Part shown: in pieces, positions 22,578 to 49,430 of the stretch
How the letters are laid out: every line of letters starts with the position of its first letter
Numbering within the stretch: position 1 is the stretch's first letter
The notes under the pieces: generated by a model
Told to the model about the DNA's origin: nothing
Seen by the model: only the letters and a program-made list of their open reading frames with translations
The model's database searches: none
Translations under genes and position numbers: made by a program
IMG/VR virus record: IMGVR_UViG_3300022744_000006
Coordinates: 1 to 63,552 of that record
Source of the DNA: a virus
Lineage: Duplodnaviria; Caudoviricetes
Direction: 5' to 3' (one strand)
Length of the DNA stretch: 63,552 bases

Positions 22578-22599
22578 TATTTCTCATCCCGGAGAAATA
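22578..22599. promoter_or_regulatory. conserved late-gene hairpin, copy 1
   Basis: TATTTCTC-ATCCCG-GAGAAATA; core 14 nt upstream of the ATG at 22567. Confidence 0.8.
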
Positions 22600-22612
22600 C
22601 ACACTAAGAGCC

Positions 22613-22981
22613 CTACAGATTTGTTCGTGCGCGGCGGAGTATCCCGTCGGCCGTCTTTCTGATCACTCTGAAATACTGGTCCTTTTCGTTGCACCAGTAG
22701 TCCTTTTCCACGCCAGCGGCCAAGGGCCACGACACGGTCGACGAAGCTGCGGGAAGAGACGAGCTCGGCCCAAAGTGGATGAAGCAATCGGTGTCGGCAA
22801 CAAACGTCACCCAGCACCCACCGATCGGGATTCCTCCCGACAAGACCAGTGCCGCGGCGGTGCTCACCGCTGTCACCGCAACGGTTGGCTCGATGGCAAT
22901 CGGATCTGCCGATCCATCAGTCTCTGTCGATCCCGACGCGTGCGGGGGTCGTTTCGCAATGGCTGCGCCTTGGCCAAGCAT
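22613..22981 (-). CDS. virion structural protein (putative)
   Basis: Late operon; beta-rich. Confidence 0.65.
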   Translation of the reverse strand: MLGQGAAIAKRPPHASGSTETDGSADPIAIEPTVAVTAVSTAAALVLSGGIPIGGCWVTFVADTDCFIHFGPSSSLPAASSTVSWPLAAGVEKDYWCNEKDQYFRVIRKTADGILRRARTNL

Positions 22982-22982
22982 A

Positions 22983-23402
22983 CTACACGCTCCATGCGCT
23001 CACTGTCGCGCTGACGGACACAGTCCCGCCGCCCGAAGTGAAGTCATACACCGGCCTGATCCACTTCGGAAAATCCGAGTAGGACAATATCACTTCGTAC
23101 GTCCCGATTGCCGGCGAAGAGACGGCGAGAAGGCCAGTGGTTGGAGTGAATGTGAACCCTGTCGGAAGAACCGACAGCTCTTTCCCTGTCGCCAAAGTCG
23201 GAAGCGACAAAGGCGTGATGTCGAGCGCTCTCGCGTCGTCGTTTGTTCCCGTGAGCGCCACGGTTCCGACGAGCGTAGCCGCCGTCACCGTCACGAACAC
23301 CGACATCGTTAGCTTGTTGCACTGAGAAACCTGCACGGTGTAACCGCTAGCGTCCGCGCTTCCTGCTCCAAGCAGTTGCTGATTTTTTACTATGTCTGCC
23401 AC
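22983..23402 (-). CDS. virion structural protein (putative)
   Basis: GTG overlapping the upstream TAG; GGAGG RBS; beta-rich. Confidence 0.65.
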   Translation of the reverse strand: MADIVKNQQLLGAGSADASGYTVQVSQCNKLTMSVFVTVTAATLVGTVALTGTNDDARALDITPLSLPTLATGKELSVLPTGFTFTPTTGLLAVSSPAIGTYEVILSYSDFPKWIRPVYDFTSGGGTVSVSATVSAWSV

Positions 23403-26341
23403 TAACGGCCTCCGTTGCTGATGATCAGCGGGAAAACATCCTCCGCGAAGCGCTTGTCGGTGCGATAAAGTCGCTCCGTTGTCGCTGCGCGATCGTCGTC
23501 TGTCTTGTCTTTCGAGTAGTCGTCTGCCCAAGGCATGAACGAGCTCGGGTCAGCCTGCATAGCCGCTTTGACATCGCGGCCGAGTGTGATCCCCGTGGGC
23601 ATGCCGGGGATGCTGCCGGTGGATGGTCTGATCGAGTCGTGCACCGACGTTACCGTGCTTGCAACGGGCAGCCTTCCGTATGAAGCGACGCGATCCATCA
23701 TCGCGGCCGTGTCTTTGCTCAGCCACTGGGCCCGGTAGGCGTTCGCTCGGGGTTGGATATGCTGGCCAAGCCAGTAGCCGCCAGCCATGCCTGCGGCGCC
23801 GCCAAGGGCCGGTGTTCCGACTAAGGAACCGGCCACTCCTCCGATGCCGCCAAGGATGTAACCGAGCTTGTTGTCCTGCATGTTGAACAGCTTGGGCGGT
23901 GCCTGATTCGCCGTGCGCTGACCTGCGTCCGCGAGCAACCCTGCCGCGTGCTCGCGGGCTTTGTTCACGGACCAGTCCGCGGCCAGGCTAGGACTGGCGT
24001 TTTCGGCGCCGATATCCATCGCATGGTCGACGGCGGCGTACTCATCGCGCAGGTATTCGTTGCGCACGCTCGGGACGGAGTTGACCCCGATCGGTCGGCC
24101 GATGGCGCGAGCGTCGTGGTACATGTGATCGAACGGCACCCCTGCCGTCCCTCCCACGCTGTAGGTTGGATCGCCCACCGTGCCCTGAACGATTTGCTCG
24201 GGGGGTTGGCGAGGCGGGAGCGGAGGCGGTGCCGCGGGACGCGGGGCAGCGGCTGGTGGGAGCATATCCGGAGGTGGCGGAGCTTCCATTCCGGGGGGAA
24301 CTGGCGCCGCTGCGCGCGGCGGAGGTGGCGGAGGCGGCTGCGCTGGAGCCCGGGGAGTCGGCGCGGGCGGAGTGTATCGGGCTGACGCGGGCTTCTGCAA
24401 AGGGCCAAGCTCCTCCCCGATGGGAGGCTCCTGGTACCTTGCTGACACGGGCTTCTGCAGCGGTCCTTGTTCGAGCGTTGGCGGCCCCGGAGGCTGGTAC
24501 CGGGCGCTTGGGCGCGGAAGCGGTGGCCCTCCGATATCTCCTCGCTCCATCCCGTGCTGGTACTCGAACTCTGCCAGCACGGCGGGGTCGAGCTCACCAG
24601 ACGCTACCTTCTGCGAGATGATGTCGTGCTCCATGAGCGCGCCGATGTCGTCGGGTGGTGGAACGTTCGCCCTTCCCTGCGATGCCAGCGCATCGATCGC
24701 GTCTGGCTGGTCGGGAACGGGCACGTTGATCCGCGGCGCGGCGCGCGCGCTGACTTTCGGGGCAGGCGGCGGAACTTCTGCCGGCGGCGGCGGCTGGTAG
24801 CGAGCGCTCGGAACATCACCGCGGGGCGGCGGCGGCGGCTGGTAGTGAGCGCTCGGACGAGCTTCTGTCAGGTCCGCATCCGACAGCTGCGTGACTCCGG
24901 GCTCCGGCGGCAGCGGGTTGCGGGCCTCGTCCAGCGCCGCCAGCTTCTCGACGGCGGAGTACGGATCGGCCCGGTCGATGTCCGCCGCTTCGAGCTCCGA
25001 CAGCGCTCCCACAGGGTCAGGAGGCATGGCCCCCGCGCCCGAGGGTGGAGCCGCGGACGCGGGGCTCTTGCTGGGCAGCGGAGGCGGCACAGCAGAAGGC
25101 TTTCGAGGAGGAGGAGGTGGCGGAACGGCCTTGGCTTCGACCGGCAGGTACTCGTCCTGGACAAGCTCCTTCGGCATGCCGGAATACTCGTCGGCCACCG
25201 ACTTCATCTCGTTGTATTTCCGCGTGGACGTTGGAACGCCCTCGACGTGTCCTGGGTAGCGGCTTTCCGCCACGGACATCAGCTGATCGGCCACGTCCTG
25301 CGGATTGGCCGTAGCGCCAGCTTCGGTGAGAGCTGCGGCGGCGGCTTCCTTCTTTGCCCGAACCTGGTCGACTACCTCTCCGGCCAGCCGACCCATTTTG
25401 TTCACCGGCTGCGGTCCATGCTGAGCAAGCAACCGCTCGGCCTCTTCGACGGTCTGCCGAAGCACTTCGGGCTTTGCCTTGATCGCATCGATCTCTGCGT
25501 CGCTGAGACCAGACGACTTGAGCAGCGCATTCACCCGCAAAGCTTCGCGGTCGGCCATGGCTCCGGGTTCCCTGAGCGCGGCAGCTCGCTTTGTCCCATA
25601 GCCCACAGCCCCCGCGCCGAGTAGGGAGCCAGCGCCGGATAGCATTGCGTCCGTCTTCGAGGCGTCGAACGCCTTGTCTACGTCTCCGGTGTCTCCATAA
25701 GCGCGAGAGAAACCTTGCGCTCCTCCGGTTACTGTGTTGGCGAGAATGTTGCCAGCAATCGCTCGCCCGCCGGTCATGCCGAACTTCGCGCCCGCAAGCA
25801 CCTTGTTTGCAGGTTGCAGCACGCTTGCCACGGTATCCGCGCCGTGGAATGCGTTTGGAGCCTTCCGTTCCGATTCTTCGCTCCAACCTCGAAGTGCCGC
25901 CGCTGCGCGCTTCACAACGTCTGGAGGGAGATCGCTGTTCTCGATGGCCCTCGGGATCGATCTGTCTGCGCCCATGGACAGGCCATGCACCCCGCCGGCC
26001 GCTCCACTCTCAAGCTGTTGGGCAACGGATGCGGTGTCAGCAACAGAAGGGCCTGCGCCTGGAAGTCGAACCTTGAAATCGTTAGGAACTTCAAAGTCGC
26101 CAGTAAGACGCTTGGTATCCGACAACTCCGCTTCTCTGTCAGTGCTGAGACCAAGCCCGCCTCTTACGCTACTTCTTAGGCTATCAAGCCCTTGGAGCCA
26201 TGCGGGCCTTTCATCAGGTGCGGGTGCGGCGGCTGGAGGTGGAGAATCAGCGGAGTTTGACACTGACGCGGGGTCAACCGTCTCGTTAGGCGAGGAGGAG
26301 TCTTCTCCAAGCTCCTTCAGAAGATCTTCGTAGTCGGACAT
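23402..26341 (-). CDS. large Pro-rich putative ejection or internal virion protein
   Basis: 979 aa; Gly-zipper-like hydrophobic segments; SARYQPPP repeats; podovirus ejection-gene position. Confidence 0.7.
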   Translation of the reverse strand: MSDYEDLLKELGEDSSSPNETVDPASVSNSADSPPPAAAPAPDERPAWLQGLDSLRSSVRGGLGLSTDREAELSDTKRLTGDFEVPNDFKVRLPGAGPSVADTASVAQQLESGAAGGVHGLSMGADRSIPRAIENSDLPPDVVKRAAAALRGWSEESERKAPNAFHGADTVASVLQPANKVLAGAKFGMTGGRAIAGNILANTVTGGAQGFSRAYGDTGDVDKAFDASKTDAMLSGAGSLLGAGAVGYGTKRAAALREPGAMADREALRVNALLKSSGLSDAEIDAIKAKPEVLRQTVEEAERLLAQHGPQPVNKMGRLAGEVVDQVRAKKEAAAAALTEAGATANPQDVADQLMSVAESRYPGHVEGVPTSTRKYNEMKSVADEYSGMPKELVQDEYLPVEAKAVPPPPPPRKPSAVPPPLPSKSPASAAPPSGAGAMPPDPVGALSELEAADIDRADPYSAVEKLAALDEARNPLPPEPGVTQLSDADLTEARPSAHYQPPPPPRGDVPSARYQPPPPAEVPPPAPKVSARAAPRINVPVPDQPDAIDALASQGRANVPPPDDIGALMEHDIISQKVASGELDPAVLAEFEYQHGMERGDIGGPPLPRPSARYQPPGPPTLEQGPLQKPVSARYQEPPIGEELGPLQKPASARYTPPAPTPRAPAQPPPPPPPRAAAPVPPGMEAPPPPDMLPPAAAPRPAAPPPLPPRQPPEQIVQGTVGDPTYSVGGTAGVPFDHMYHDARAIGRPIGVNSVPSVRNEYLRDEYAAVDHAMDIGAENASPSLAADWSVNKAREHAAGLLADAGQRTANQAPPKLFNMQDNKLGYILGGIGGVAGSLVGTPALGGAAGMAGGYWLGQHIQPRANAYRAQWLSKDTAAMMDRVASYGRLPVASTVTSVHDSIRPSTGSIPGMPTGITLGRDVKAAMQADPSSFMPWADDYSKDKTDDDRAATTERLYRTDKRFAEDVFPLIISNGGR

Positions 26342-30582: not shown

Positions 30583-30929
30583 TAGCCGATCACCAACAAT
30601 CTAATGGTCGAGTACTTTTGACCATTGTTCAGGCCGGAGAACTTCGCTCGGACAGTCGACCCGCCAAATGACCAGTCTGCAGACGTTCCGGTCGACTGCC
30701 ATGTTCCATCCACCGATGCGGTGTAAACGTTCAGGACGGCAAACGGTGCCGCGTCGCTTGAAAACGAGATTCCATCAGCGGTTGAGTACACGTAGTCGTT
30801 GATCTCGACGAGCTTCATCGGCACGACGGACGACATGATCGATCCCATATCTCGGAAGTTTTCTCCGACAGATCGAGAGTCCGCCTTCTCGTCGGATGAC
30901 CACGTTCGGTTGCGAATGGAGGACTTCAT
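30582..30929 (-). CDS. virion protein (putative)
   Basis: Overlaps both neighbours in the late operon. Confidence 0.6.
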   Translation of the reverse strand: MKSSIRNRTWSSDEKADSRSVGENFRDMGSIMSSVVPMKLVEINDYVYSTADGISFSSDAAPFAVLNVYTASVDGTWQSTGTSADWSFGGSTVRAKFSGLNNGQKYSTIRLLVIG

Positions 30930-34563: not shown

Positions 34564-34914
34564 TTAGTAGCCCGCATCTCCCCAGGGATCGTCTTTCCAT
34601 CCACTGGCCAGCGGAGCGTCAGGGTTACCTCCACTTTTGTCGGGCGTCTTGCTGTCGCTCTTGAGATAGGCTTGGAGCAACGAACCGATGTTGTTGTTCC
34701 GGGAGTTCTTTGCATTCTCCCCGATCTCGTTCAGGCCGAAGCGCATGTTTGCAGCTTCTATCCCGTACGGGTTTCCGCCTTCTGACTCTGCTTGCCGCTG
34801 CATGATGCCAAGACGAGTCTTGGTCATCAGGTTCTGCTTTTGACGAGCTTCTTCGGCTCGCGCCTGTTTGTCGCTAGCGGCTGCAGCGAGCAAGGCAATG
34901 ATGGGGAATGCCAC
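34564..34914 (-). CDS. small virion-associated protein
   Basis: GTG overlapping the upstream TAG; GGAGG RBS. Confidence 0.6.
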   Translation of the reverse strand: MAFPIIALLAAAASDKQARAEEARQKQNLMTKTRLGIMQRQAESEGGNPYGIEAANMRFGLNEIGENAKNSRNNNIGSLLQAYLKSDSKTPDKSGGNPDAPLASGWKDDPWGDAGY

Positions 34915-37516: not shown

Positions 37517-37582
37517 GTTGCCTCCGAAAAAATACCGGGACCGCGCGAGGCAGACGACTCACGCGATCCCGGATAGCTGTTG

Positions 37583-38911
37583 TTAGGAAGCCAGCGCGAC
37601 GCCGCCGTTGGCGGTGTTGTTCTGGATGCCCGTGATCAGGAAGTTGCGGTACGGCATCTCAAACACAGGAGCCTGGTTCGAGAAGATGCGCATCGAAGCG
37701 CCCGCGTTGCTCGGCATGTGCGTGAAGAAAGCCTCCGCGCCGCCGCCGATTGGACGCATCGTCAGGTCGGTTGAGCCGACGCGACGGAAGTTGTCCGTGG
37801 AGATAAAGAACGCCTGGCCCTGCTTGGCGTACTGGTAGACGGTCACCTCGATGATTCCCGCTGCCGTCTCGTACATCAGCTGGCTTGCGCCCTGACGCTT
37901 CACCTTGTCGGTGTTGCCGGTGAAGCGCTGCAGAGCACTTGCCTCTTCGGCAAGGTCAGCGAAGGTCGGCGCGCAGACGAACAGCTTGCCGCCGTTCTTC
38001 ACGCCGTTGATGGACACGGCAGCCGCCATGGCCATGATCTTCGCGCGCGACAGGGCGCCGCCCGCGGAGAATGTCATGCAGCGCCACGGAGCAACCGACG
38101 CGGCGTTGATGCCGAAGATGGTACCCGTGTTGTTGTAGATGGCTTCGAGTCCGAAGCACGACTTGGTGCGCCATCCCAGCGGGACGATGCGGTCGTTCGC
38201 CGCGACGGTCGCCGCCGAAGCTGCCTTGGTCAGCGTAAGACGGGTCTGCGTGGTGCTCGGGCGAGCGTCCACGTTGACGTTGGTCTCGCGGAGCGTGGTG
38301 CCGTCAGCCTGGTAGATGTCGACCTTCATGCCGCTGCCGGCAGAGCCGGAGCCGCCGCCGGAGGCGATGATCCACAAGCCGGGGATCCAGCTCGCTTCCG
38401 TGAGGTAGACGACCTGCGTGGCGCCGAGGTTGACGCCGGAGACAGATCCGCCGACCACGCCGATGTTCGAGGCAATGGCAGTCGATGTGCCCGGACCGTA
38501 CGCCAGGGCGAGCTCGCGGTAGAGCGCAGCACCCTGCAGCATCGCCTGAACGGTCTGGTCGAGTGCGGTCTTGTAGGACCCACCCGTGCTGCCGTTGCCG
38601 TTGCCGTTGAGGCTCTTGTAGATCGTGTCGTACGACACAACCGACTGGAGCATGATCGTTGCGCCGTCGAGGTTCGCATTGAGTACGGTCGAATCGACCG
38701 CGGGATTCAGTGCGAATGCGCTGTTGTCGACGTTCGCGGTCTGGCCGAGCTCGAGGCCGGTCAGGACGGGAAAGTTGTAACCGAGACCGGGGCGGTTCTC
38801 GGAGGGAACGAAGTCACCGGCATCAGCCAGGGTGTGCTCGTCTGGCAGCGGGTCGATCCATCGACCGTAGCGCTGCTTGAACATACCCTGGACGTTAGTA
38901 AAACTCGCCAT
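37583..38911 (-). CDS. major capsid protein
   Basis: 442 aa; MFKQRYG N-terminus and G..YNFPV; downstream of scaffold and portal; strong codon bias. Confidence 0.85.
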   Translation of the reverse strand: MASFTNVQGMFKQRYGRWIDPLPDEHTLADAGDFVPSENRPGLGYNFPVLTGLELGQTANVDNSAFALNPAVDSTVLNANLDGATIMLQSVVSYDTIYKSLNGNGNGSTGGSYKTALDQTVQAMLQGAALYRELALAYGPGTSTAIASNIGVVGGSVSGVNLGATQVVYLTEASWIPGLWIIASGGGSGSAGSGMKVDIYQADGTTLRETNVNVDARPSTTQTRLTLTKAASAATVAANDRIVPLGWRTKSCFGLEAIYNNTGTIFGINAASVAPWRCMTFSAGGALSRAKIMAMAAAVSINGVKNGGKLFVCAPTFADLAEEASALQRFTGNTDKVKRQGASQLMYETAAGIIEVTVYQYAKQGQAFFISTDNFRRVGSTDLTMRPIGGGAEAFFTHMPSNAGASMRIFSNQAPVFEMPYRNFLITGIQNNTANGGVALAS

Positions 38912-39238
38912 AACACAGACTCCAAAACGATTAGGGGTTGATTCCCTTTCGCTCGGCGTGCCGTGCTACGTGCGTCTCTCTGAGTGCCGATACTGGGTGC
39001 GGAGTCCTCGGGATCGGGCCGGTGGTTTTCCGTCGCCCTAGCCGTTTCCGGTTGCTGCGCTAAATGGTCCGGTATGGGGTCAGAACTACAGGTGCAGGGT
39101 TCCTACGAAGGATGATTTTTTTCCGGAGAATCTATTGCTTGGGCGCGGTCATCGGACGGTTAGATTTGTCCGATGACCGCTCCTTCGCCGCCGCGCTCCG
39201 GGATGTGTTCCGCGGCATGTCTTGTCATCGACAGGCGG

Positions 39239-39266
39239 ATCTTACGTGATGCTACTCATACGTCAA
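39239..39266 (-). promoter_or_regulatory. sigma70-like promoter upstream of the capsid gene
   Basis: Minus strand TTGACG-N16-TAAGAT with an AT-rich upstream segment. Confidence 0.55.
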
Positions 39267-39309
39267 CTGCAATATAGTATGTGTACAAACGTATGGCGTT
39301 TAGAAGGTG

Positions 39310-40611
39310 TTAGACTCTTCCGCGAACCGCGTTGTTGAAGTCGCTGATCCGCATGCGTTGCTGCCGCTGTTGCAGGGGCGCTCCGGCAGGCCCTGGACCG
39401 GCCGACACTGGAGGAAGCTGCGGCTGTCGGCGAGCAAACTGACCACCTTGCGGAGCTCCGGAAGGGACGCGTGGTTGCTGGGCCGGCGGAGCCGCTGGCG
39501 CATCTCGTTGCAGGTACTGGTTGTGACCAGCAACATGCAACTCCACATCGTCCATCGCGGCGCGCATCACACGCTCGACGAACTCACTGGTCAGATCTTG
39601 TCCGGCAATGCCGGGGAGCTGCGCGTTGAAGTGTTTCTCGAACAGCGTCTGTGAGAGCGGAGTGTTCACGAAGCCGAGCTGAGCAGCGACCTTTGGCGCG
39701 ATGTGGCTCAGCTGCTGAAGGTAGATCTGTCTGATCTGCTCGACAGACGGGCCACCGTCGGCCTGTTGTTCCCGCGGCGCTTGCTGAGCTTTCAGCGTCC
39801 GATTCTCGATCTCCAGCCGCTGCAGCTCTGCACGCTGGGCACGCAAAGCCCGATGAACCTCGCGCTGCTCGGGAGTCATCCGCCGCTCGGCATCCAGCTG
39901 CGTGCCGTAGATGATTGCGGCCTTCGCGAAGCCTGGAAACTTGCCCAGGAACACCATGGCGTCCAGGAACTTATGCCCGTCGTCCATGTCGACAAGGAGC
40001 TTCTGAAGTCCAGCCTCGCGCTGCTCCAACGAAGCTTTGTACGCGTAGAGCTCGCGCAGCTTGTTCGAGTAGTCGGTGTGGAGTTGGTACCCCTTCACGG
40101 CCTCGGAAACTGGGATACGGAAGCGCTGGCCGTTCACCTGGGCGACCACGAACTTGTCGTGAAGCACGTCGGGGAGATCATCGGCCTTCTTCCACGCCTG
40201 GTATTCATCGATCCAAGCGCGAATCTCGTCGGCGCTCACCACCTGCGCCTGATGAACCTCGCCCTCGCCCTCGCCCTGTGGGATCGGGGCGAGCGGATCG
40301 TCCTCCACCGCAAGCGCCATTGATTGGGCGTCCTGCGGGGTGCCGAACGGATCGAATGGGTCAGCTCCTTGCTGCCGGTCGACCAGTCCAGGGTTCTGCA
40401 AGCCGATCGATTGGCCCGGTTGGCCGTCGGCGCCGAACACCGTCTGCTGCGAGAGCGCGGGCTGAATGCCGGCGCTCGAAAACGCATTGAACTCGCCAAC
40501 GCGAGCTCGCTGCTGCCCTGGAGCTGGACCGGACGGTTGGTTTACCGCTTGTCCACCCTGTGATGGAGCTGCGGTCTGCCCGCCGCCCCCTCCGCCGTTT
40601 GCGTCTGCCAT
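39310..40611 (-). CDS. capsid scaffolding protein
   Basis: Disordered N-terminus; VNGQRFRIPVSEAVKGYQLHTDYSNK motif; coiled coil; between portal and capsid genes. Confidence 0.8.
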   Translation of the reverse strand: MADANGGGGGGQTAAPSQGGQAVNQPSGPAPGQQRARVGEFNAFSSAGIQPALSQQTVFGADGQPGQSIGLQNPGLVDRQQGADPFDPFGTPQDAQSMALAVEDDPLAPIPQGEGEGEVHQAQVVSADEIRAWIDEYQAWKKADDLPDVLHDKFVVAQVNGQRFRIPVSEAVKGYQLHTDYSNKLRELYAYKASLEQREAGLQKLLVDMDDGHKFLDAMVFLGKFPGFAKAAIIYGTQLDAERRMTPEQREVHRALRAQRAELQRLEIENRTLKAQQAPREQQADGGPSVEQIRQIYLQQLSHIAPKVAAQLGFVNTPLSQTLFEKHFNAQLPGIAGQDLTSEFVERVMRAAMDDVELHVAGHNQYLQRDAPAAPPAQQPRVPSGAPQGGQFARRQPQLPPVSAGPGPAGAPLQQRQQRMRISDFNNAVRGRV

Positions 40612-40619
40612 ATATCAGT

Positions 40620-40635
40620 TTCTCATCCCGGAGAA
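40620..40635. promoter_or_regulatory. conserved late-gene hairpin, copy 2
   Basis: TTCTC-ATCCCG-GAGAA; core 9 nt upstream of the scaffold ATG. Confidence 0.8.
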
Positions 40636-40640
40636 TCCTG

Positions 40641-42920
40641 TTACTGGGCGCCCTGTGGGGGCGTGGAAGGTTCGGGAAGCTGTGTTCCTGATGGATGCAC
40701 CTGGCCGCTTGCCTGACCGCCGTCCTGAGCTCCTGCCTGCCGGCTGGACATCTCCTGATTGCCTGGCTGCGGCTGCGGTCCTGGCACAGGAGGACCGGCC
40801 GGCTCGGCTGGACTTCCTCCGCCGCCCTGGGCCATGCCCATCCCGCTAGGCCCTGGTCCGGGACCACCCGGTGGGCCCATCTGCCCGGATGCCAGCATGA
40901 GCTCGAAGACCATGTTGCCGCGCGGGTTCATGGGGTTCGGGTAGATCGGAGGGGGCGCTGTGATCCCCTGGAAGCCCGCGACGATTGGGTTCAGGTTCTG
41001 TAGGTAGAACTCGGTGTGATCGGCAAGGTGCTTCCTGATCCGCATGATCGCCTCCTGGTCAGGAACGTCTGCGGCCAGCAGCTGCTCAAGCATGCTGAAG
41101 TGCATAGGGTAGTGCTTGAATGGATCGTCGGCGTTGTTCACCTCGACGATCCCAAGCCCAGTAACCAGCATCTCGTTCTCCTTGCGGATCAGCATCTCGC
41201 AAGTGTTCTCCGTCTTGAGCCAACGAGTGGTGTTTCCCGTGGTGACCATCTCGTATGCAGCGGCTCGATCCTCCGGCGGCATGTTCCTCAGCGCCGTGAT
41301 TATCTGAAGCCGACCCGCCGCGCTCTGCATGAGCGGGCTCACCTGCTCGATGTCCACGCGCTGGACGCCGGAGAGATCCTCTTTGGTGAACTCGCTCACG
41401 TAGGAGCGCTGTTCGATCCCGGCGATGTCCACCAGGAACGGAGTCTCTCCGTAGCGCGTGATCATGTCGAGCAAGATGGTGGCGCCTTCGATCCTGAAGC
41501 GCCGCGCTGCGTCCTGCCTGAATGACTGGTAGCGAATGGCGATGCTGTCAAGCAGCGCGTTCATCTCGCCAGACCGAACGTTCGGGTCCGGATCACCACG
41601 GCTTGCAGCATTCTGCCCGCTCACGGTATCCATCATCTTGTGCAGGTATTGCTTGAGATCCGGTAGGGTCGGAGGCGGGGAAGACAGCTGCACTGCGCGC
41701 GGCATTTGTGCGCCGGGTGGAACGTAAAATGCAGTGCCCTGCGCTAGAGCGTCGATTGTAACCTCGGTGCCCTTCTCAATCGCCACGCTCTGGCGACCGA
41801 AGGATGCATAGTTTTGCATCTCGTCGGAGTTGACCTGATTGAGCGCTTGAGTGATCGCGATTAGGTCCCACGCATCAGCGTAACCGAACGTGCTTTCGAT
41901 GAACCGTCCCGATTGCATGATGGCAATCGGGAGACCGCGCTTACGAGGACACGGGCCATCCCAAAGGATGATGTCTCCGACCATCATCACATAGCGACCC
42001 TCCGGAACGGCAGCGCAGCGCTTGTGATAGAAGTGCTTTACCGTCAGCTGATCACGGTTGGCGTAGTACAGATCTTCGAGGCGGAACAGCGTGCCAAAGT
42101 CGTACCGATCCGAGTCGGTCCGCACCGCCAACAGCTGCTCTTTGAACATCGGGAAGTTGGCGATCAGTGACCAGCGGCTGTCTGGCTCGCGAATCATGCG
42201 CCATTGATGCTCTCCGGAGATCCGCGTTTCTTGAACGCATGACCACGGATAGAAGAGCGTCACAACGGGCTCGCCGGATTTCTCGATCGTGTAGTGCTGT
42301 CGCGTGGTCCCGTCGGGCAGCGGGATGTCGCGAGGGACCTTCATGTCGTCGCCGCCGAGGAAGTCCCAGCGGTAGTGCGTTCCGGCGCTTCCAAACACGC
42401 CGTCTCCCTCCGCAGCTTCCATGTCCAGCGGGGCGCTGTAGCGCTTGTACAGGGAGTTGATGATCTTGTCCGTGAGCGTGCTCTTTGCCATCGATCGATG
42501 GTCTGAGTTGCTCACGAGAGCGCGGAAAGCAGCCGGCTCGCCAAGCGCGAGAGATGTCTGGTGTCTGACGTACGGGCGAATCAGATTGAGGTGGAACCTG
42601 ATCATCTCCAGCTCATCGCCCGTGAAGCCGATGCTCTGCGTGGCGAAGTCGCGAAGATCGTCAGGGGTCAGCCCGTGGTGCGCCGCGTAAGCGACGATCC
42701 ACATAGCGAGAAGCCCGCGGTTGCGAGCGCTCTCGAAGAATGCCTCCTCCTTGGCAGCGATCTCTGACGTGAAGTCTTTGCCGGTTTTTCTGGCCCAGTA
42801 AATCTGTGACGGATCAACCTCCGGCTCGTCCTGGGTCGCGAGCGGATCAGAGCTCGGATCTTCCAGCGCGAGCGGATCGGTTGATTGGTTTTCTTGTGAT
42901 TCTTCTTGTTGCCCGTACAC
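40641..42920 (-). CDS. portal protein (P22/podovirus-like)
   Basis: 759 aa; NLIRPYV, QALN...S, VSGQNAASRG...RSG.M; Pro/Gln-rich tail. Confidence 0.85.
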   Translation of the reverse strand: MYGQQEESQENQSTDPLALEDPSSDPLATQDEPEVDPSQIYWARKTGKDFTSEIAAKEEAFFESARNRGLLAMWIVAYAAHHGLTPDDLRDFATQSIGFTGDELEMIRFHLNLIRPYVRHQTSLALGEPAAFRALVSNSDHRSMAKSTLTDKIINSLYKRYSAPLDMEAAEGDGVFGSAGTHYRWDFLGGDDMKVPRDIPLPDGTTRQHYTIEKSGEPVVTLFYPWSCVQETRISGEHQWRMIREPDSRWSLIANFPMFKEQLLAVRTDSDRYDFGTLFRLEDLYYANRDQLTVKHFYHKRCAAVPEGRYVMMVGDIILWDGPCPRKRGLPIAIMQSGRFIESTFGYADAWDLIAITQALNQVNSDEMQNYASFGRQSVAIEKGTEVTIDALAQGTAFYVPPGAQMPRAVQLSSPPPTLPDLKQYLHKMMDTVSGQNAASRGDPDPNVRSGEMNALLDSIAIRYQSFRQDAARRFRIEGATILLDMITRYGETPFLVDIAGIEQRSYVSEFTKEDLSGVQRVDIEQVSPLMQSAAGRLQIITALRNMPPEDRAAAYEMVTTGNTTRWLKTENTCEMLIRKENEMLVTGLGIVEVNNADDPFKHYPMHFSMLEQLLAADVPDQEAIMRIRKHLADHTEFYLQNLNPIVAGFQGITAPPPIYPNPMNPRGNMVFELMLASGQMGPPGGPGPGPSGMGMAQGGGGSPAEPAGPPVPGPQPQPGNQEMSSRQAGAQDGGQASGQVHPSGTQLPEPSTPPQGAQ

Positions 42921-42925
42921 CTCAC

Positions 42926-42951
42926 AACCGATCTCATCCCGGAGATTGGTT
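42926..42951. promoter_or_regulatory. conserved late-gene hairpin, copy 3
   Basis: AACCGATCTC-ATCCCG-GAGATTGGTT; core 11 nt upstream of the portal GTG. Confidence 0.8.
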
Positions 42952-43271
42952 CACTTCACCAAGTAGCCGAGCTCGGCCACGCTGAAAACGTCGTCTGGGT
43001 TCTCCAGTAAAAACTGGTGAACGCGCTCAACGTCAAGACGCTTCGCCCACGGGTACATCTCTTTCCCCGCGCACTCCGAGCACTGAGTAAACCAGGCGGC
43101 GTTGTTCGGGCATGGTTTCCAGCCCTCTTCCAACACAGCGGCCGTGCCGAGCTCAGCAACGCGCGTTTGTATGTCCTCAACGGAGACGCGCGGGCAATGC
43201 TCACACGTGCGCGGAGTGTTGATCATGCGATCAACAAGCTCTCGCGCCTCCTGCAGAGTGCCCTTGTTCAC
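42951..43271 (-). CDS. Zn-binding hypothetical protein
   Basis: GTGA overlap; CEHC and CSEC. Confidence 0.55.
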   Translation of the reverse strand: MNKGTLQEARELVDRMINTPRTCEHCPRVSVEDIQTRVAELGTAAVLEEGWKPCPNNAAWFTQCSECAGKEMYPWAKRLDVERVHQFLLENPDDVFSVAELGYLVK

Positions 43272-43819
43272 GCGTAACTCATGGTCACGAACTTGGGAAA
43301 CTCGCCGTTCTTTTTTCCGGCCGCATCGGGCTGGTGAAGCGCCCACGGGGCAGCGATCTTGCCCAGGGCGGAGAAGAACGAGCTGCGATCCAACCCACTG
43401 TCCCATCCCTTCTCGGATTCTATCCAGTGATCGCGCACGTGGATAGGCCCGTAAACCTTCACTTCCTCCGCAAGCTTGTCAGCTCCTGCGTGGATAGTGA
43501 TCCGCGCGCCGTCGACCGCCTCTTTGAACCCCTGTGCCTCGGTGAGTCGGCGCCGGCCGTACGACTTGCGGGCCACCACATAGACGACGGTTCCCTTGTT
43601 GAATCCGTCGACGTTGAGGCGCTCCGATAGGCACTCGTTGAGAAGCTCCTCGGGCACCTTCGGAAAGCGCTTGCGGAGGTAGTACGACGCCGCCTCAATC
43701 TCCTCGAATGGAGGAGAGAGAAACCGCGTGTTGTAGGTGATCTCGATCTCTGGTTCCGGAGCTTGAACCTGAGCCCTTTGTTCGTTCTTCTGATCTGCCA
43801 CTTGTCTGCTATTTCTCAT
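43268..43819 (-). CDS. hypothetical protein (true start may be GTG at 43801)
   Basis: ORF in the packaging module; annotated ATG lies inside the hairpin. Confidence 0.7.
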   Translation of the reverse strand: MRNSRQVADQKNEQRAQVQAPEPEIEITYNTRFLSPPFEEIEAASYYLRKRFPKVPEELLNECLSERLNVDGFNKGTVVYVVARKSYGRRRLTEAQGFKEAVDGARITIHAGADKLAEEVKVYGPIHVRDHWIESEKGWDSGLDRSSFFSALGKIAAPWALHQPDAAGKKNGEFPKFVTMSYA

Positions 43820-43833
43820 CCCGGAGAAATGGT
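43808..43833. promoter_or_regulatory. conserved late-gene hairpin, copy 4
   Basis: GCTATTTCTC-ATCCCG-GAGAAATGGT. Confidence 0.8.
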
Positions 43834-43834
43834 G

Positions 43835-44152
43835 CTACTTGCTGGCCTTGAGCTCGTCTTCGATGGTGCCAACCGTTCCGGATGAAAGCGCTGGCGCTCC
43901 ACTCTGAACCGGCTGATAGAACGCGGAAACGTCATCAGCGGGGCGGCAGAAATACACGTTGCCGGGGTAGGTGATGATCGCGTCGCCCTGGTGGACGTAG
44001 ACCATGACCTTCTCCTGTCCCTGAAGCATGGAGCCGACGATGGTATCGTCTTCGTGGAACGAATCCCTGGCAACAGCTGGATGCCCAACGGAAGAGTTGT
44101 AGAAAACAATGTCGACCTGCGCGGGCGGCGGAACCTTCTCTTCGTACATCAT
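43835..44152 (-). CDS. hypothetical protein
   Basis: AGGAG RBS; TGATG coupling. Confidence 0.65.
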   Translation of the reverse strand: MMYEEKVPPPAQVDIVFYNSSVGHPAVARDSFHEDDTIVGSMLQGQEKVMVYVHQGDAIITYPGNVYFCRPADDVSAFYQPVQSGAPALSSGTVGTIEDELKASK

Positions 44153-44565
44153 CAGAACGCTCTCCTGTTCTGGCTCTGAGCCATTACAACCTTGGTTGTC
44201 TCGTCTTTGACCACGGCAATGGCAGCCTTCAAATCCGCTGCGTAGCGGGTCATTCCCGTGTCGATCTTGCCCACCGTTTCCTGAAGCTCAATGAACCGGC
44301 TGCCAGCCTTGGCGTGTCCCTCCGACACGTCGGCGCGTACCATGTCCAGCTCGCTCAGAGCGCGCTGCGCCAGGCCATGGGCCTGCTCACACCGGGCATC
44401 CAACCTAGCCAAACTGGCCTTGATCGCGTTGATGTCGTCATTCACGGCACCCATCATGCCCATGAAAAGCTTCCGTTTGTCGGTCCAGCGCTCCAAGTCC
44501 ATCCACTTGTAGAGAAGAACCGTCGTGCACACAGTGCACACAATGCACAGCAAAGTAGTATTCAT
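44152..44565 (-). CDS. membrane-anchored coiled-coil protein
   Basis: N-terminal TM segment followed by coiled coil; ATGA overlap with the terminase stop. Confidence 0.65.
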   Translation of the reverse strand: MNTTLLCIVCTVCTTVLLYKWMDLERWTDKRKLFMGMMGAVNDDINAIKASLARLDARCEQAHGLAQRALSELDMVRADVSEGHAKAGSRFIELQETVGKIDTGMTRYAADLKAAIAVVKDETTKVVMAQSQNRRAF

Positions 44566-46403
44566 CTGCGACCTCCCTTGAACATCCGCAGCCTACCCCG
44601 TTGGTCACCGCCGCGCGCAAGCTTCTGAGCCTCTTCGAGGGCGATTTCGTGCGGGGCCTTGGGCACCCACGGAAGGCGCTCGACCACGGATACGCCGGCC
44701 GGAAAGTCCTTGAGGATGTGCTCGGGAGGGTGCGGCCGAAGGTTCTCGTATTGCTCCACCTTGCGGACGAGGTAGACCAGCGCGGCAAGGGCGTCAAAAT
44801 GGCCGTAGACCGGGTGCTGCGCGAGCTTTCCGCGCTTGTCGCGCTTGCCGGCGCGCACGTGATCGATGACACAGCCCGCGTCCTTGTGGAACCACATGCG
44901 GCCCTCGGACACCCAGTTCCGGAGGTTGCGGAGCATGGTCGTGAGCTCCTCTTTGGTCGTCGGGAGGAACTCCAGGCCGTAGTGCTCGTCGATGTCTCGG
45001 ATCAGCTGCTTGTCTACGTCCGAGACGCGTGACGCCGGGTTCAACTTGAAACCGGTCCGATCGTAGTAGGGCGTGATCGCGCCGGGGATCTTCTTGGTGA
45101 TCCAGTCGCCCGGACGGCGCTCCGTGTGCGGGCGCTCCTGCGACGGTACCTGAGCCATTCGGTGCATCTCCGGAGCAAGGTGCTCGTACTTGTCACCGCG
45201 GAGCAAGTCTGTCCATCCAGCGTGGTCACCATCGTGGCGCAGCGGAACGCGACGCATGCGGGTGTCCGGCCACTTGCCCCACAAGACGAACTCGCGCACG
45301 GCGCACACCGCGGAGACTTCCATGGATCCCGCGTTGCTCTTGGCCCAGCTGTCGAGGATGAGCAGACGGTCCGCATCCCAGTCGTACTCGCCGAACACCA
45401 GGGCGAACAGGTGTGTCTGTCCAGGGTCGGCAGCGACAAAGCCGTAGCCGTAGGCGGGGCGCTCGAAGGCGCGAACGTGGAGCTCGCGATCGAACTCGGG
45501 GACGGCCTTGAGGCTCGGGTCTCCGGCAATAATGTTGAAGTACTCGCGCTCGCAGTTCGGGTCCCCTCGCCCGCCTGCCATTCGAATCCAATACTCCTTC
45601 TCTCGCGCGGAGAGCTTGGAGTTGTCCATGATCGTGACTTCGGAGAACGCCCCGCGCCGTTTGGCGTCGGGCATCACCACGCGTTCCCAGTCCGTGTCGA
45701 GGTCCTCCGGCGCGGAGCTCTCGACGAACATGCGCGCCCAAGGCCGCTGCTGGTACTGGTGAATCAGAACGTTGCGGATCGAGTACTCAAGGTGATCGAT
45801 GAACGCAGCTTCCGAGACGAAGTCGAAGTCGTTCGCCTGCCCGCGAAGGGCATCCTTGTTCATGTCGATGCCGGCCAGCGCGAGTCGTGCGCCGCCCGTC
45901 GGGCCGTGCTCGGGCCAGTACAGACCGGCCGGCAAGATGCCGCGCTTTCCGTGATAGACAGGCACCGAGTGATCGGGCGCTGTCGCGAACGCCTGCGGGA
46001 TCACCGATCCAACAATCTCGTCGATGTTTTTCTGGAACGCGCTCGTCAACCGCATGCTCGCGGGACGCTTGTACGTGCGATAAAACCACACCGCGATCTC
46101 GTAGGCGATCCAGATGTACAGCGTGGTCTTGCCGAAGCGCTTGCCGCCCGCGATCACGTAGATCAGCGGGATGCTTCCAACCTCGTGGACCTTGTCCAGC
46201 TGCTCAATGCGGCGCCACTCCTGGATGGCGTCTCTGAGCGCGAGCTGGCCTTCATGCATGAGCCCGGAAAGATCACCAGTCTCCCATCCGAGAAGAATCA
46301 ACTCCTCGTCCGAGAGACTTTCCAGGACATCGTCAGATACAGACGTCTCGTGTATCAAATCATTGTCGTCAGGGTAGTTCACTCTCCTGCTTGGCCTTCT
46401 CAT
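44562..46403 (-). CDS. terL: terminase large subunit (true start may be GTG at 46382)
   Basis: GGKRFGKTT Walker A, LRGQ..D..FVSEAAF Walker B, EREY, ADPG and HFDALAAL nuclease motifs. Confidence 0.92.
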   Translation of the reverse strand: MRRPSRRVNYPDDNDLIHETSVSDDVLESLSDEELILLGWETGDLSGLMHEGQLALRDAIQEWRRIEQLDKVHEVGSIPLIYVIAGGKRFGKTTLYIWIAYEIAVWFYRTYKRPASMRLTSAFQKNIDEIVGSVIPQAFATAPDHSVPVYHGKRGILPAGLYWPEHGPTGGARLALAGIDMNKDALRGQANDFDFVSEAAFIDHLEYSIRNVLIHQYQQRPWARMFVESSAPEDLDTDWERVVMPDAKRRGAFSEVTIMDNSKLSAREKEYWIRMAGGRGDPNCEREYFNIIAGDPSLKAVPEFDRELHVRAFERPAYGYGFVAADPGQTHLFALVFGEYDWDADRLLILDSWAKSNAGSMEVSAVCAVREFVLWGKWPDTRMRRVPLRHDGDHAGWTDLLRGDKYEHLAPEMHRMAQVPSQERPHTERRPGDWITKKIPGAITPYYDRTGFKLNPASRVSDVDKQLIRDIDEHYGLEFLPTTKEELTTMLRNLRNWVSEGRMWFHKDAGCVIDHVRAGKRDKRGKLAQHPVYGHFDALAALVYLVRKVEQYENLRPHPPEHILKDFPAGVSVVERLPWVPKAPHEIALEEAQKLARGGDQRGRLRMFKGGRR

Positions 46404-46656
46404 CCCGGAGATGGGCCTTCAACGTGATGAAAACAGAGCGGAGTCTCTTGTCGAGCTCGACGACGTTCAACGCCCCGTCGGTGCACAGCCGAAGACAATG
46501 GGCGAGACCGGGCTTGCTGATCAACCGAGCTTTCACGATGAACGTGTCGAGCTTTTCAGCCCTCGCCACGGTGAAGCTCATGTCGTTCTCAGCGCGCAGA
46601 ATCGTCTCGCCAACTAGGTTGGCATGCCTGATCACTGTCGAGTCGGTGAAGCTCAT
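46369..46656 (-). CDS. hypothetical protein
   Basis: GAGGA RBS. Confidence 0.6.
   Translation of the reverse strand: MSFTDSTVIRHANLVGETILRAENDMSFTVARAEKLDTFIVKARLISKPGLAHCLRLCTDGALNVVELDKRLRSVFITLKAHLRDEKAKQESELP
46393..46417. promoter_or_regulatory. conserved late-gene hairpin, copy 5
   Basis: GGCCTTCTC-ATCCCG-GAGATGGGCC. Confidence 0.8.
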
Positions 46657-49357: not shown

Positions 49358-49430
49358 GCGTCACCCCGTTCATTGGGTAAGCGAGGGCAAGCGATGTGCA
49401 GGAGCCACCTACCACACCGCCCGCCCCCGG

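What the first reader, a model, noticed from the sequence alone, without database searches (positions are those of the whole stretch)
22578..46417. Invariant 14-nt hairpin TCTC-ATCCCG-GAGA placed just upstream of five late genes
Exact copies in the same orientation lie at 22582, 40621, 42932, 43814 and 46398. The outer arms differ but stay complementary (TATT/AATA, AACCGA/TTGGTT, GCTATT/AATGGT, GGCCT/GGGCC), which indicates selection for structure. Each core is 9-15 nt before a start codon: tail protein 22567, scaffold 40611, portal 42920, and in-frame GTGs at 43801 and terL 46382. Most of these starts lack a well-spaced Shine-Dalgarno. On the mRNA the loop is CGGGAU, a GGA loop resembling a CsrA/RsmA site (CANGGAYG) with A changed to C, which suggests a translational operator. 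Against that, the imperfect outer pairs are G-T on the + (template) strand, which would fit a template-strand hairpin promoter or a DNA operator. Either way it looks like an undescribed late-gene regulon, and the trans-acting factor is unknown.
Basis: partly seen in the sequence, partly recalled or inferred. Interest (0 to 1): 0.82.

Follow-up and report, generated by a model that had tools for sequence, protein, structure and literature searches.

The report
Start-linked RNA hairpin replacing ribosome-binding sites
A small conserved hairpin with an unchanging six-base loop sits just ahead of several virion-assembly genes of an uncultured freshwater phage, where a normal ribosome-binding site would be, so it probably controls how those proteins are made, by an unknown factor.

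Summary
TCTCATCCCGGAGA occurs five times, all on the + strand (0 of 100 shuffles reach 5). The window is a complete 63.5-kb phage record with terminal repeats. Late genes are on the minus strand, so the mRNA reads UCUC-CGGGAU-GAGA.

Five related uncultured phage genomes or fragments and one metagenome contig carry the same element. I count 23 canonical copies and 3 loop variants, all in the mRNA sense and all in gaps between late genes.
- The 12-nt core is 88-100% identical between orthologous sites, while the outer arms diverge yet stay complementary (27 double-change cells against 10.4±2.5 in shuffles, 0 of 500).
- The start codon lies 19-26 nt after the loop.
- Only 2 of 25 sites have a well-spaced Shine-Dalgarno core, against 32 of 83 other ORFs.
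- 17 of 25 starts are GTG or TTG.
- For two gene families, one genome has the hairpin with GTG and no SD, while sister genomes have a canonical SD or overlapping stop/start coupling and no hairpin.

Best reading (0.5): an RNA operator for translation initiation, read through its loop by an unknown factor. It resembles a CsrA/RsmE hexaloop but lacks the defining first A. The wobble test does not settle which strand folds. No RNA data exist. The scan has noted other start-linked phage hairpin families on other DNA, but not this sequence.

The parts
22578..22599 (-). Hairpin copy E. On the mRNA it reads UAUUUCUC-CGGGAU-GAGAAAUA, an 8-bp stem that can extend to 12 with one mismatch. It lies 14 nt before the ATG at 22567.
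   Evidence: (36.2 bits)
22112..22567 (-). 151-aa fibre or head-like gene (weak Gp80/phrog_240 hit), ATG start, no SD core at spacing 4-10.
40620..40635 (-). Hairpin copy D, with a 5-bp stem. It fills the 29-nt gap between the portal stop (40641) and the ATG at 40611.
   Evidence: (28.7 bits)
39310..40611 (-). 433-aa gene between portal and major capsid protein. 'Scaffold-like' rests on position only; it has no family hit.
42926..42951 (-). Hairpin copy C, with a 5-bp perfect stem, or 10 bp with one A.C mismatch. It lies 11 nt before the portal GTG at 42920.
   Evidence: (32.8 bits)
40641..42920 (-). Portal gene (phrog_156), GTG start in 5 of 5 genomes.
43809..43832 (-). Hairpin copy B, with a 7-bp perfect stem. 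It lies 12 nt before the GTG at 43801.
   Evidence: (32.3 bits)
43268..43801 (-). 177-aa gene of unknown function. It is conserved in all five relatives and always preceded by a hairpin copy or variant.
46393..46417 (-). Hairpin copy A, with an inner 4-bp stem plus an outer GGCC/GGCC helix. It lies 15 nt before the TerL GTG at 46382.
   Evidence: (27.9 bits)
44562..46382 (-). Large terminase gene (phrog_2). The GTG start is supported by the conserved N-terminus (Y-P-D/E-D).

Best explanation
The element is an RNA hairpin family in the long late (virion-assembly) mRNA of a small clade of uncultured freshwater phages. Each copy has an invariant hexaloop CGGGAU on a stem closed by C-G and U-A, with freely covarying outer pairs. 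Its base lies 5-13 nt before the start codon of a cistron that has no usable Shine-Dalgarno sequence and mostly starts with GTG or TTG.

I infer that it is a translation-initiation operator. A factor that reads the loop, either a host CsrA/RsmA-like protein with altered specificity or an unidentified phage protein, binds the hairpin and sets how often ribosomes start on terminase, portal, the scaffold-like protein, a 177-aa protein and a fibre-like protein. The major capsid gene keeps a strong canonical ribosome-binding site.

Shown:
- the structure constraint;
- the position of the copies;
- their orientation;
- the lack of SD;
- the hairpin-or-SD alternation between orthologues.

Inferred:
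- that the RNA rather than the DNA is the active form;
- that the effect is on translation;
- whether the effect is activation or repression;
- the existence of a factor.
For: (1) Covariation. In 23 copies from 6 sources, 79.9% of cells in an 8-bp helix pair, against 65.4±2.2 in shuffles. There are 27 double-change cells against 10.4±2.5, reached by 0 of 500 shuffles. Slid controls give at most 13.

(2) Core against flanks. The 12-nt core is 88-100% identical between orthologous junctions. The outer arms are 25-64% identical and the upstream flanks 23-38%.

(3) Specificity. The covariance model finds the 23 copies (E <= 2.3e-4) plus 2 variants (E 0.044 and 0.058) in 320,361 bases, all in the mRNA sense of the late operon. 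Everything else has E >= 0.59.

(4) Position. The start codon is 19-26 nt after the first loop base (median 23). The upstream stop, where there is one, is 10-27 nt before it.

(5) Weak starts. An SD 4-mer at spacing 4-10 is present at 2 of 25 sites against 32 of 83 other window ORFs (Fisher p = 0.003). ATG starts are 8 of 25 against 55 of 83 (p = 0.005). The sites are not independent, and my ORF list is rough.

(6) Natural swaps. The 122-aa gene family has GGAG, GGAGG or AGGAG plus ATG and no hairpin in the window, G003 and G004. In G001 it has the hairpin, no SD and GTG. The 105-aa family has an SD in the window, G002 and G004, overlapping stop/start coupling in G003, and hairpin plus GTG in G001. 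At the G003 scaffold junction the CGGGAU loop is lost and an AGGA SD is present.

(7) Independence from upstream translation. In G001, G003 and G004 a copy follows a tRNA-Asn gene directly, so it works without an upstream terminating ribosome.

(8) Sense-strand wobble path. In the inner stem the scaffold junction shows CUC/GAG (window, G002), CUC/GGG with a U.G pair (L154) and CCC/GGG (G001). This path is tolerated only on the mRNA strand.

(9) Contrast with the capsid gene. The major capsid gene has a conserved canonical RBS in 5 of 5 genomes.

(10) Against a promoter. No sigma-70-like site lies at any hairpin in 36.5-50 kb. No RNA polymerase or sigma family appears among the 62 non-structural ORFs scanned with Pfam.
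Against: No transcript, 5' end or protein data exist; no RNA run holds the phage.

The wobble test does not favour the mRNA strand at outer stem positions 4-10. Sense G.U is 7 against 11.8 expected, and sense A.C is 20 against 20.6 expected. The complementary strand folds more stably at 14 of 23 sites, against 8 for the sense strand. The differences are not significant (P for AC minus GU = 0.15), but they lean towards the template strand.

In a 90-nt context the hairpin's closing pair has probability >= 0.5 at only 14 of 23 sites.

No candidate factor was found. None of the 4 complete genomes encodes CsrA. Models of two conserved small proteins matched no solved fold.

The host is unknown, so it cannot be said whether it has CsrA.

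The SD and start-codon contrasts use orthologous, non-independent sites and hand-picked starts.
Confidence: 0.5

Rival explanations
1. RNA processing or stability element. The hairpin marks where the polycistronic late RNA is cut, by a loop-specific endoribonuclease that needs an unpaired GGA as T4 RegB does. Alternatively it forms a protective 5' stem-loop on the downstream segment. Either way it sets the relative amounts of each cistron's mRNA rather than its translation.
For: The copies are intercistronic, in one orientation, with an unpaired GGA(U) followed by an A-rich 3' arm in many copies. T4 RegB cuts GGAG/U in intergenic translation-initiation regions and needs the GGA unpaired (PMC3014915, passages read). 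In three genomes a copy sits directly 3' of a tRNA-Asn gene, where tRNA maturation must create a new 5' end about 0-10 nt before the hairpin.
Against: A stabilising 5' hairpin does not need an invariant loop. This reading explains neither the hairpin-or-SD alternation nor the weak start codons. No RegB-like, barnase-like or other nuclease family was seen among the 62 ORFs scanned. RegB inactivates early messages, whereas these are late genes the phage needs.
Confidence: 0.2
2. DNA-level signal. One form is a late promoter or operator whose 12-bp asymmetric core is read on duplex DNA by a phage activator. The other is a hairpin extruded on the template (+) strand and used as a promoter, as with phage N4's virion RNA polymerase. 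Either would give very short leaders.
For: Outer-stem mismatches lean towards G.T on the + strand, and the + strand folds slightly better. The short distance to the start codon could give near-leaderless mRNAs that need no SD. SSB and a basic HTH-like 111-aa protein are among the few non-structural genes shared by all 4 complete genomes.
Against: Covarying arms around an invariant asymmetric centre are the opposite of a protein operator on duplex DNA. No RNA polymerase or sigma family was found, and a DxDGD-type motif occurs only in TerL and one 196-aa ORF; both are weak tests. The distance from loop to start codon spans 8 nt (19-26), which is too loose for leaderless starts from a fixed promoter. 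In addition, 17 of 25 starts are GTG or TTG, which from recall are poor for leaderless initiation in many bacteria. The inner-stem U.G intermediate would be an A.C mismatch on the + strand. The gaps are 29-50 nt, with no room for upstream promoter elements outside coding DNA.
Confidence: 0.15
3. The operator is specifically a binding site for the host's CsrA/RsmA, so that the phage ties assembly-gene translation to the host's Csr state. This is a sub-case of the best explanation.
For: A GGA sits in a hexaloop placed directly on a stem closed by C-G then U-A. This is the architecture of the high-affinity RsmE target ACGGAU in the hcnA RBS hairpin (PMC4005645, passages read). A spanin-like gene pair points to a Gram-negative host (inference).
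Against: The first loop A of A(N)GGAX is recognised specifically and, according to that paper, is not replaceable. Here it is C in all 23 canonical copies. The GGA is 14-21 nt from the start codon and so does not overlap an SD. A second GGA near the start is present in some copies only. The host and its CsrA are unknown.
Confidence: 0.12
4. A recombination or module-boundary repeat, like the PeSLs of T4-like phages, or a small selfish repeat that is tolerated in intergenic gaps and has no role in expression.
For: Presence varies between genomes at three junctions. In G001 two copies bracket genes whose arrangement differs from the window, and copies adjoin an inserted tRNA gene. PeSLs are repeats at gene boundaries linked to indels (PMC4122927, passages read).
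Against: PeSLs consist of a stem-loop plus a sigma-70 promoter plus an SD, and sit in variable non-structural regions. Here there is no promoter and no SD, and the copies precede core structural genes at the same junction in 5 of 5 genomes. The fixed distance to start codons and the loss of SD argue for a role in expression.
Confidence: 0.05

Closest known systems
Start-associated sequences (SAS/ESAS) of Cluster K mycobacteriophages (Pope et al. 2011, PMC3203893; passages read)
   Same: A short repeat specific to one phage clade. It lies in one orientation just upstream of many start codons, is conserved across subclusters and in front of different gene families, has an unknown factor, and is proposed to act in translation initiation.
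   Different: SAS is a 13-bp unstructured sequence (GGGATAGGAGCCC) that contains the SD core. It lies 3-7 bp from mostly ATG starts, is present in 11-19 copies, and is restricted to non-structural genes. The authors found no support for RNA pairing of the ESAS inverted repeats. The present element is a covarying hairpin without an SD, 9-16 nt from mostly GTG/TTG starts, with 4-7 copies, all in the structural operon.
CsrA/RsmE high-affinity RNA targets (ANGGAX hexaloop on a C-G/U-A closed stem; Duss et al. 2014, PMC4005645; passages read)
   Same: A six-base loop presents an unpaired GGA directly on a stem closed by C-G and U-A, in a translation-initiation region.
   Different: The first loop base is C, not the specifically recognised A. 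The GGA does not overlap an SD. There is no regular second GGA site. It is not known whether the host has CsrA, and the phages encode none.
T4 translational and RNA-level controls: split SD hairpins of genes 25 and 38, RegA operators, RegB cleavage at GGAG/U (review PMC3014915; passages read)
   Same: Phage intercistronic RNA structure or sequence that sets initiation at individual cistrons. RegB needs an unpaired GGA in an initiation region.
   Different: No SD lies upstream of the stem that folding could bring near the start (0 of 23 sites). No RegA or RegB homologue was seen. The T4 elements are single-gene or unstructured, not a repeated hairpin with an invariant loop.
PeSL promoter/stem-loop cassettes of T4-like phages (Comeau et al. 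2014, PMC4122927; passages read)
   Same: A repeated stem-loop-containing unit at gene boundaries, with presence or absence varying between close relatives.
   Different: PeSLs carry a sigma-70 promoter and an SD, their stems act as terminators, and they avoid structural regions. None of this applies here.
Phage N4 hairpin promoters and lambda boxB/nut hairpins (recalled, not checked in a paper here)
   Same: Small hairpins with sequence-specific loops, read on the template DNA strand (N4) or on nascent RNA (boxB).
   Different: From recall, N4 promoters have 3-nt loops and need a giant virion RNA polymerase, and boxB occurs twice per genome near early promoters. Here the loop has 6 nt, no polymerase gene was found, and there are 4-7 copies directly before late start codons.

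Membership tests
CsrA/RsmA binding hairpin | Unpaired GGA in the loop of a short hairpin | tested here: met
   The loop is CGGGAU in 23 of 23 canonical copies, and GGGA is kept in all 3 variants.
CsrA/RsmA binding hairpin | Core A(N)GGA(X), in which the first adenine is specifically recognised (PMC4005645) | tested here: not met
   The first loop base is C in 23 of 23 copies, and no A precedes GGA in either register.
CsrA/RsmA binding hairpin | Hexaloop directly on a stem closed by C-G with a penultimate U-A | tested here: met
   The closing pair is C-G in 23 of 23. The next pair is U-A in 20, C-G in 2 and U.G in 1.
CsrA/RsmA binding hairpin | A GGA site overlapping the SD or start, usually with a second site for the dimer (partly recalled) | tested here: not met
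   The GGA lies 14-21 nt before the start. A second GGA near the start occurs only in some copies, for example the window's TerL.
CsrA/RsmA binding hairpin | CsrA present in the host or the phage | tested here: inconclusive
   PF02599 is absent from all 4 complete phage genomes. The host is unknown; no prophage relatives were found in 2 scans of species genomes.
Start-associated sequence (Cluster K SAS) | 13-bp asymmetric consensus GGGATAGGAGCCC containing AGGAG, 3-7 bp before the start | tested here: not met
   The sequence is different, has no SD core, and lies 9-16 nt from the start.
Start-associated sequence (Cluster K SAS) | Clade-specific repeat in one orientation immediately upstream of start codons | tested here: met
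   26 of 26 copies and variants lie in the mRNA sense before start codons.
PeSL cassette | Stem-loop followed by a sigma-70-type promoter and an SD | tested here: not met
   No promoter-like site lies at any copy in 36.5-50 kb. A well-spaced SD is present at only 2 of 25 sites.
T4-type split ribosome-binding site | An SD upstream of a hairpin that brings it to a functional distance from the start | tested here: not met
   0 of 23 sites have an SD 4-mer upstream of the stem giving an effective spacing of 4-10.
N4-type hairpin promoter | A phage-encoded RNA polymerase that reads a template-strand hairpin | tested here: not met
   No polymerase family appears in the Pfam scan of 62 ORFs or the PHROGs scan of 20 late ORFs. 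The large late proteins were not scanned with Pfam, so this test is weak.
Any Rfam family | Match to a curated covariance model | tested here: not met
   Only tRNA-Trp passes the gathering threshold in the whole window. No hit lies at a hairpin with E <= 5 in 40400-46600.

The most novel reading that the evidence does not exclude
The hairpin is a Shine-Dalgarno-independent ribosome-entry signal. A loop-specific factor, possibly one of the few unknown proteins shared by the whole clade, or the ribosome itself, recruits or licenses 30S subunits at SD-less GTG/TTG starts. The phage would thereby run its terminase, portal, scaffold-like and fibre genes as a separate translational regulon that sets assembly stoichiometry, and SD and hairpin would be interchangeable modules in evolution.
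Probability: 0.3. Interest if true: 0.8.

Novelty: new variant of a known kind. Interest (0 to 1): 0.62.

Why it matters
Phage structural operons are usually thought to set protein ratios through SD strength and translational coupling. Here a clade has replaced the SD at five to seven cistrons with one structured RNA signal, while keeping a strong canonical site for the capsid gene. The swap between SD and hairpin can be seen between sister genomes.

If the hairpin proves to be a translational operator, it would be a compact and portable control element. It would also be a second, structurally different example of the 'start-associated' signals known from Cluster K mycobacteriophages, whose mechanism is still unsolved. 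It offers clear tests: loop, stem-breaking and compensatory mutants of a roughly 20-nt hairpin.

It also adds an uncatalogued RNA motif for the annotation of uncultured phages.

Tried and rejected
- Chance: rejected.
- Known RNA family: none in Rfam at the gathering threshold or at E <= 5.
- Cultured relatives: a 7-kb megablast and a TerL tblastn against 50,697 phage records found nothing. The capsid protein gave only a 24%-identity partial hit to a Silvanigrella phage.
- Host: two scans of species genomes with portal and TerL profiles found no relative. The Atlas look-up of DnaB gave only viral clusters.
- Expression: no RNA holder is listed; the 4 holders are freshwater DNA runs.
- Split SD: 0 of 23 sites.
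- Sigma-70 promoter at the hairpins: none.
- Phage CsrA: none in the 4 complete genomes.
- Phage RNA polymerase or sigma: not seen.
- Kissing partner: AUCCCG is absent from the tRNA-Trp and from the Ro60-adjacent RNA region, as read off the hexamer list.
- Trans factor by fold: the 111-aa basic protein (pLDDT 78) and the 82-aa H-C-C-C protein (pLDDT 73) gave no PDB match with E <= 0.001. The 235-aa protein gave no PDB sequence hit below E 0.17.
- Wider distribution: the 16-mer occurs outside the clade only once each in 6 unrelated viral contigs, without the start-codon context.
- More distant relatives lack the element in the DNA held: L157 (MCP 69%), L174 and L175 (TerL 46-47%), and L180 and L182 (portal 45-46%).
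- Strand of the structure by wobble pairs: unresolved.
- The duplex-energy part was faulty (uncapped values) and is not used.
- Supplements of the cited papers were closed and not seen. The SAS site tables in the supplements of PMC3203893 might refine the comparison.

Full report
WHAT IS THERE

The window is a complete virus record of 63,552 bp with direct terminal repeats. The 14-mer TCTCATCCCGGAGA occurs five times, all exact and all on the + strand, at 22582, 40621, 42932, 43814 and 46398. With up to two mismatches allowed, 100 dinucleotide-preserving shuffles give a mean of 0.64 and never more than 3. The reversed control gives 0.

The genes of this half of the genome are on the minus strand:
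- TerL (phrog_2), 44562-46382;
- portal (phrog_156), 40641-42920;
- major capsid protein (phrog_14242), 37583-38911;
- a weak Gp80/head-protein hit, 22112-22567.

On the mRNA the element therefore reads UCUC-CGGGAU-GAGA. Of 59 CGGGAT hexamers in the window, only these five have at least 4 contiguous flanking pairs.

RELATIVES

The phage has no near relative among 50,697 deposited phage records. Profile searches of IMG/VR and JGI metagenomes found collinear relatives with portal identity of 76-81%:
- complete genomes G001 (66.7 kb), G003 (75.0 kb) and G004 (74.5 kb);
- fragments G002 (19.5 kb) and G005 (7.2 kb);
- metagenome contig L154.

All carry the element. There are 23 distinct canonical copies: window 5, G001 7, G002 3, G003 3, G004 4 and L154 1. 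The G005 copy is identical to one in G003.

A covariance model built from the 23 copies recovers them at E <= 2.3e-4 in 320,361 bases. It adds two variants at the expected junctions: G002 upstream of the scaffold-like gene with loop CGGGA, and G003 upstream of the 177-aa gene with a shifted CCGGGAU. Every other hit has E >= 0.59. A third variant, CTC-CGGGAA-GAG, was seen by eye at the G004 scaffold junction.

All 26 copies lie in the mRNA sense of the late operon. None is in the early or replication regions.

STRUCTURE

In the anchored alignment the columns C-CGGGAT-G-G are invariant. For an 8-bp helix, 79.9% of cells pair, against 65.4±2.2 in shuffles. Six of 8 pairs show changes on both sides, and 27 cells carry double changes against 10.4±2.5, reached by 0 of 500 shuffles. 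Sliding the partner by 1-3 columns gives at most 13.

Between orthologous junctions the 12-nt core is 88-100% identical. The outer arms are only 25-64% identical and the upstream flanks 23-38%. For example, ACUGC/GCAGU in G003 corresponds to CCGC/GCGG in G004 at the portal junction.

An invariant asymmetric centre with covarying arms is the signature of a folded single strand whose loop is read. It is not the signature of a protein operator on duplex DNA.

WHICH STRAND FOLDS

This is not settled.
- For the mRNA strand: in the inner stem (positions 1-4) there are 2 sense G.U pairs and no A.C pair. The scaffold junction shows the path CUC/GAG, then CUC/GGG (a U.G pair, in L154), then CCC/GGG (G001). 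This path is viable only on the mRNA strand.
- Against it: at positions 4-10 sense G.U is 7 against 11.8 expected from column shuffles, while sense A.C, which is G.T on the + strand, is 20 against 20.6 expected. Other mismatches are clearly depleted. The + strand folds more stably at 14 sites and the sense strand at 8 of 23, with means of -10.0 and -9.0 kcal/mol.
- The excess of A.C over G.U is within chance (P = 0.15), and the copies are related.

POSITION AND CONTEXT

I chose start codons by N-termini conserved across genomes:
- TerL: V/L-(N)-Y-P-D/E-D;
- portal: V-L/Y-G;
- scaffold-like: M-A-D;
- fibre-like: M-A/S-G-F-G.

The start is 19-26 nt after the first loop base (median 23). That is 9-16 nt after the GAG(A) arm and 5-13 nt after the base of the extended stem. 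Where an upstream ORF exists, its stop is 10-27 nt before the loop, so the hairpin fills most of a 29-50-nt gap between cistrons.

Junctions with the element:
- TerL: 5 of 5 genomes;
- portal: 5 of 5, plus G005;
- 177-aa gene: 5 of 5, one of them a variant;
- fibre-like gene: 4 of 4 complete genomes;
- scaffold-like gene: 3 canonical, 2 variant and 1 lost;
- two further junctions in G001 only.

In G001, G003 and G004 one copy lies directly 3' of a tRNA-Asn gene embedded in the operon. The element therefore does not depend on a ribosome terminating upstream.

IT STANDS WHERE AN SD SHOULD BE

A GGAG, GAGG or AGGA core at spacing 4-10 is present at 2 of 25 sites, against 32 of 83 other ORFs of the window (Fisher p = 0.003). 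ATG is the start at 8 of 25 sites against 55 of 83 (p = 0.005). These are rough tests. The sites include orthologues and my ORF list is heuristic.

The natural swaps are more telling.
- The 122-aa gene (22613-22981) has GGAG, GGAGG or AGGAG at 6-8 nt plus ATG and no hairpin in the window, G003 and G004. Its G001 orthologue has the hairpin, no SD and GTG.
- The 105-aa gene (43835-44152) has an SD in the window, G002 and G004 and overlapping stop/start coupling in G003. Its G001 orthologue has the hairpin and GTG.
- At the G003 scaffold junction the CGGGAU loop is gone and an AGGA SD is present.
- The capsid gene, the protein needed in the largest amount, keeps a conserved TTTTGGAGT...ATG site in 5 of 5 genomes. 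It is preceded by a promoter-like site and followed by a strong terminator.

A T4-style split SD is excluded: 0 of 23 sites have an SD upstream of the stem.

WHAT COULD READ IT

The hexaloop on a stem closed by C-G and U-A is the architecture of the high-affinity RsmE/CsrA target, ANGGAX on a C-G/U-A stem (PMC4005645, passages read). That paper states that the first loop adenine is specifically recognised. Here it is C in 23 of 23 copies, and the GGA does not overlap an SD. A canonical CsrA site is therefore not met, and none of the 4 complete genomes encodes CsrA.

Pfam on 62 non-structural ORFs found the following, and no RNA polymerase, sigma factor or known RNA-binding regulator:
- HTH repressors;
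- DnaB;
- a D12 methyltransferase;
- SSB;
- Erf;
- a caspase-like protease;
- Acb2/Tad1;
- Ro60.

Only a few non-structural ORFs are shared by all four complete genomes:
- Ro60;
- SSB;
- a spanin-like pair, which suggests a Gram-negative host;
- a holin-like protein;
- three unknowns of 111, 82 and 235 aa.

Models of the 111-aa and 82-aa proteins matched no solved structure. The factor is unknown.

DISTRIBUTION

More distant relatives lack the element in the DNA held: capsid 69% (L157), TerL 46-47% (L174, L175) and portal 45-46% (L180, L182). The protein database holds portal homologues at 57-64% identity.

Outside the clade, the exact 16-mer occurs once each in six unrelated viral contigs without the start-codon context.

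MECHANISM

I commit to an RNA operator of translation initiation (0.5). The element is a folded single strand with a sequence-specific loop. It sits at the ribosome's landing site on cistrons that are otherwise poor initiators. It is interchangeable in evolution with an SD, and it works without upstream translation. I cannot say whether the bound factor enables initiation or restrains it.

Rivals:
- a processing or stability signal (0.2);
- a DNA-level promoter or operator, including a template-strand hairpin (0.15);
- a module-boundary repeat without a role in expression (0.05).

COMPARISON AND NOVELTY

The closest described kind is the start-associated sequence of Cluster K mycobacteriophages (PMC3203893). 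It has the same logic, but it is an unstructured SD-containing 13-mer before non-structural genes. PeSLs of T4-like phages (PMC4122927) and the T4 controls (PMC3014915) differ in their defining parts.

The 12-mer core appears in 6 papers of the searchable library. By their titles, all 6 are eukaryotic or methods studies. Searches for conserved intercistronic hairpins in phage late genes gave nothing comparable.

Earlier notes of this scan describe other start-linked hairpin or box families in other phages, but not this sequence, and no look-alike stretch in other windows. I rate the element a new variant of a known kind.

Noticed in passing
L146:7516-7592 (G001), L161:6483-6558 (G003), L162:1872-1948 (G004): A tRNA-Asn(GTT) gene is embedded in the late operon between the TerL-side genes and the 177-aa (or 105-aa) gene, directly 5' of a hairpin copy. 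The window instead has tRNA-Trp at 49429-49502, and G002 has a tRNA-Val.
   Followed up: partly
window 37535-37572 (-), 38912-39309, 39239-39266 (-): The major capsid gene is set apart from its neighbours. A 398-nt gap with a TTGACG-16-TAAGAT promoter-like site lies upstream. Its SD (TTTTGGAGT) is conserved in 5 of 5 genomes. A 15-bp GC-rich terminator with a T-run lies downstream.
   Followed up: partly
window 52509-54302 (+): The Ro60/TROVE-vWA gene is conserved (38-40% identity) in all four complete genomes of the clade. It is one of very few shared non-structural genes. I found no link to the hairpin.
   Followed up: partly
window 57216-57668 and 57628-57966 (-): Overlapping gene pair with a lipoprotein-like signal (LVSSALPARAEDTC) and an N-terminal membrane helix. 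It looks like an o-spanin/i-spanin pair, which implies a Gram-negative host.
   Followed up: no
window 9025-9273 (-): 82-aa protein with an invariant H...CxxC...C pattern, next to the endolysin and conserved in all four complete genomes. The AlphaFold model (pLDDT 73) had no PDB match.
   Followed up: partly
window 42951-43226 (-): Cys-rich (CxxC ... C ... CxxC) small ORF between the 177-aa gene and the portal. It is present in G002, G003 and G004 but not found in G001 by tblastn. The annotated ATG at 43406 overlaps the 177-aa gene and is probably too far upstream.
   Followed up: no
L017:1058-1090, L115:6399-6431, L168:999-1031: Three small viral contigs unrelated to this clade share an identical AUUCUC-CGGGAU-GAGAA hairpin in a conserved context, 8 nt after the stop of a ~100-codon ORF. 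I found no convincing downstream ORF.
   Followed up: partly
window 46369-46656 (-): A 95-aa ORF with high third-position GC reads through hairpin copy A and overlaps the TerL start by 14 nt. It has no homologue in the relatives, where upstream ORFs stop before the hairpin. Whether it is a real gene (a small terminase?) is open.
   Followed up: no
window 47235-48089 (-): A D12-class N6-adenine DNA methyltransferase lies just upstream of the packaging genes. Among the complete genomes it is shared only with G001.
   Followed up: no
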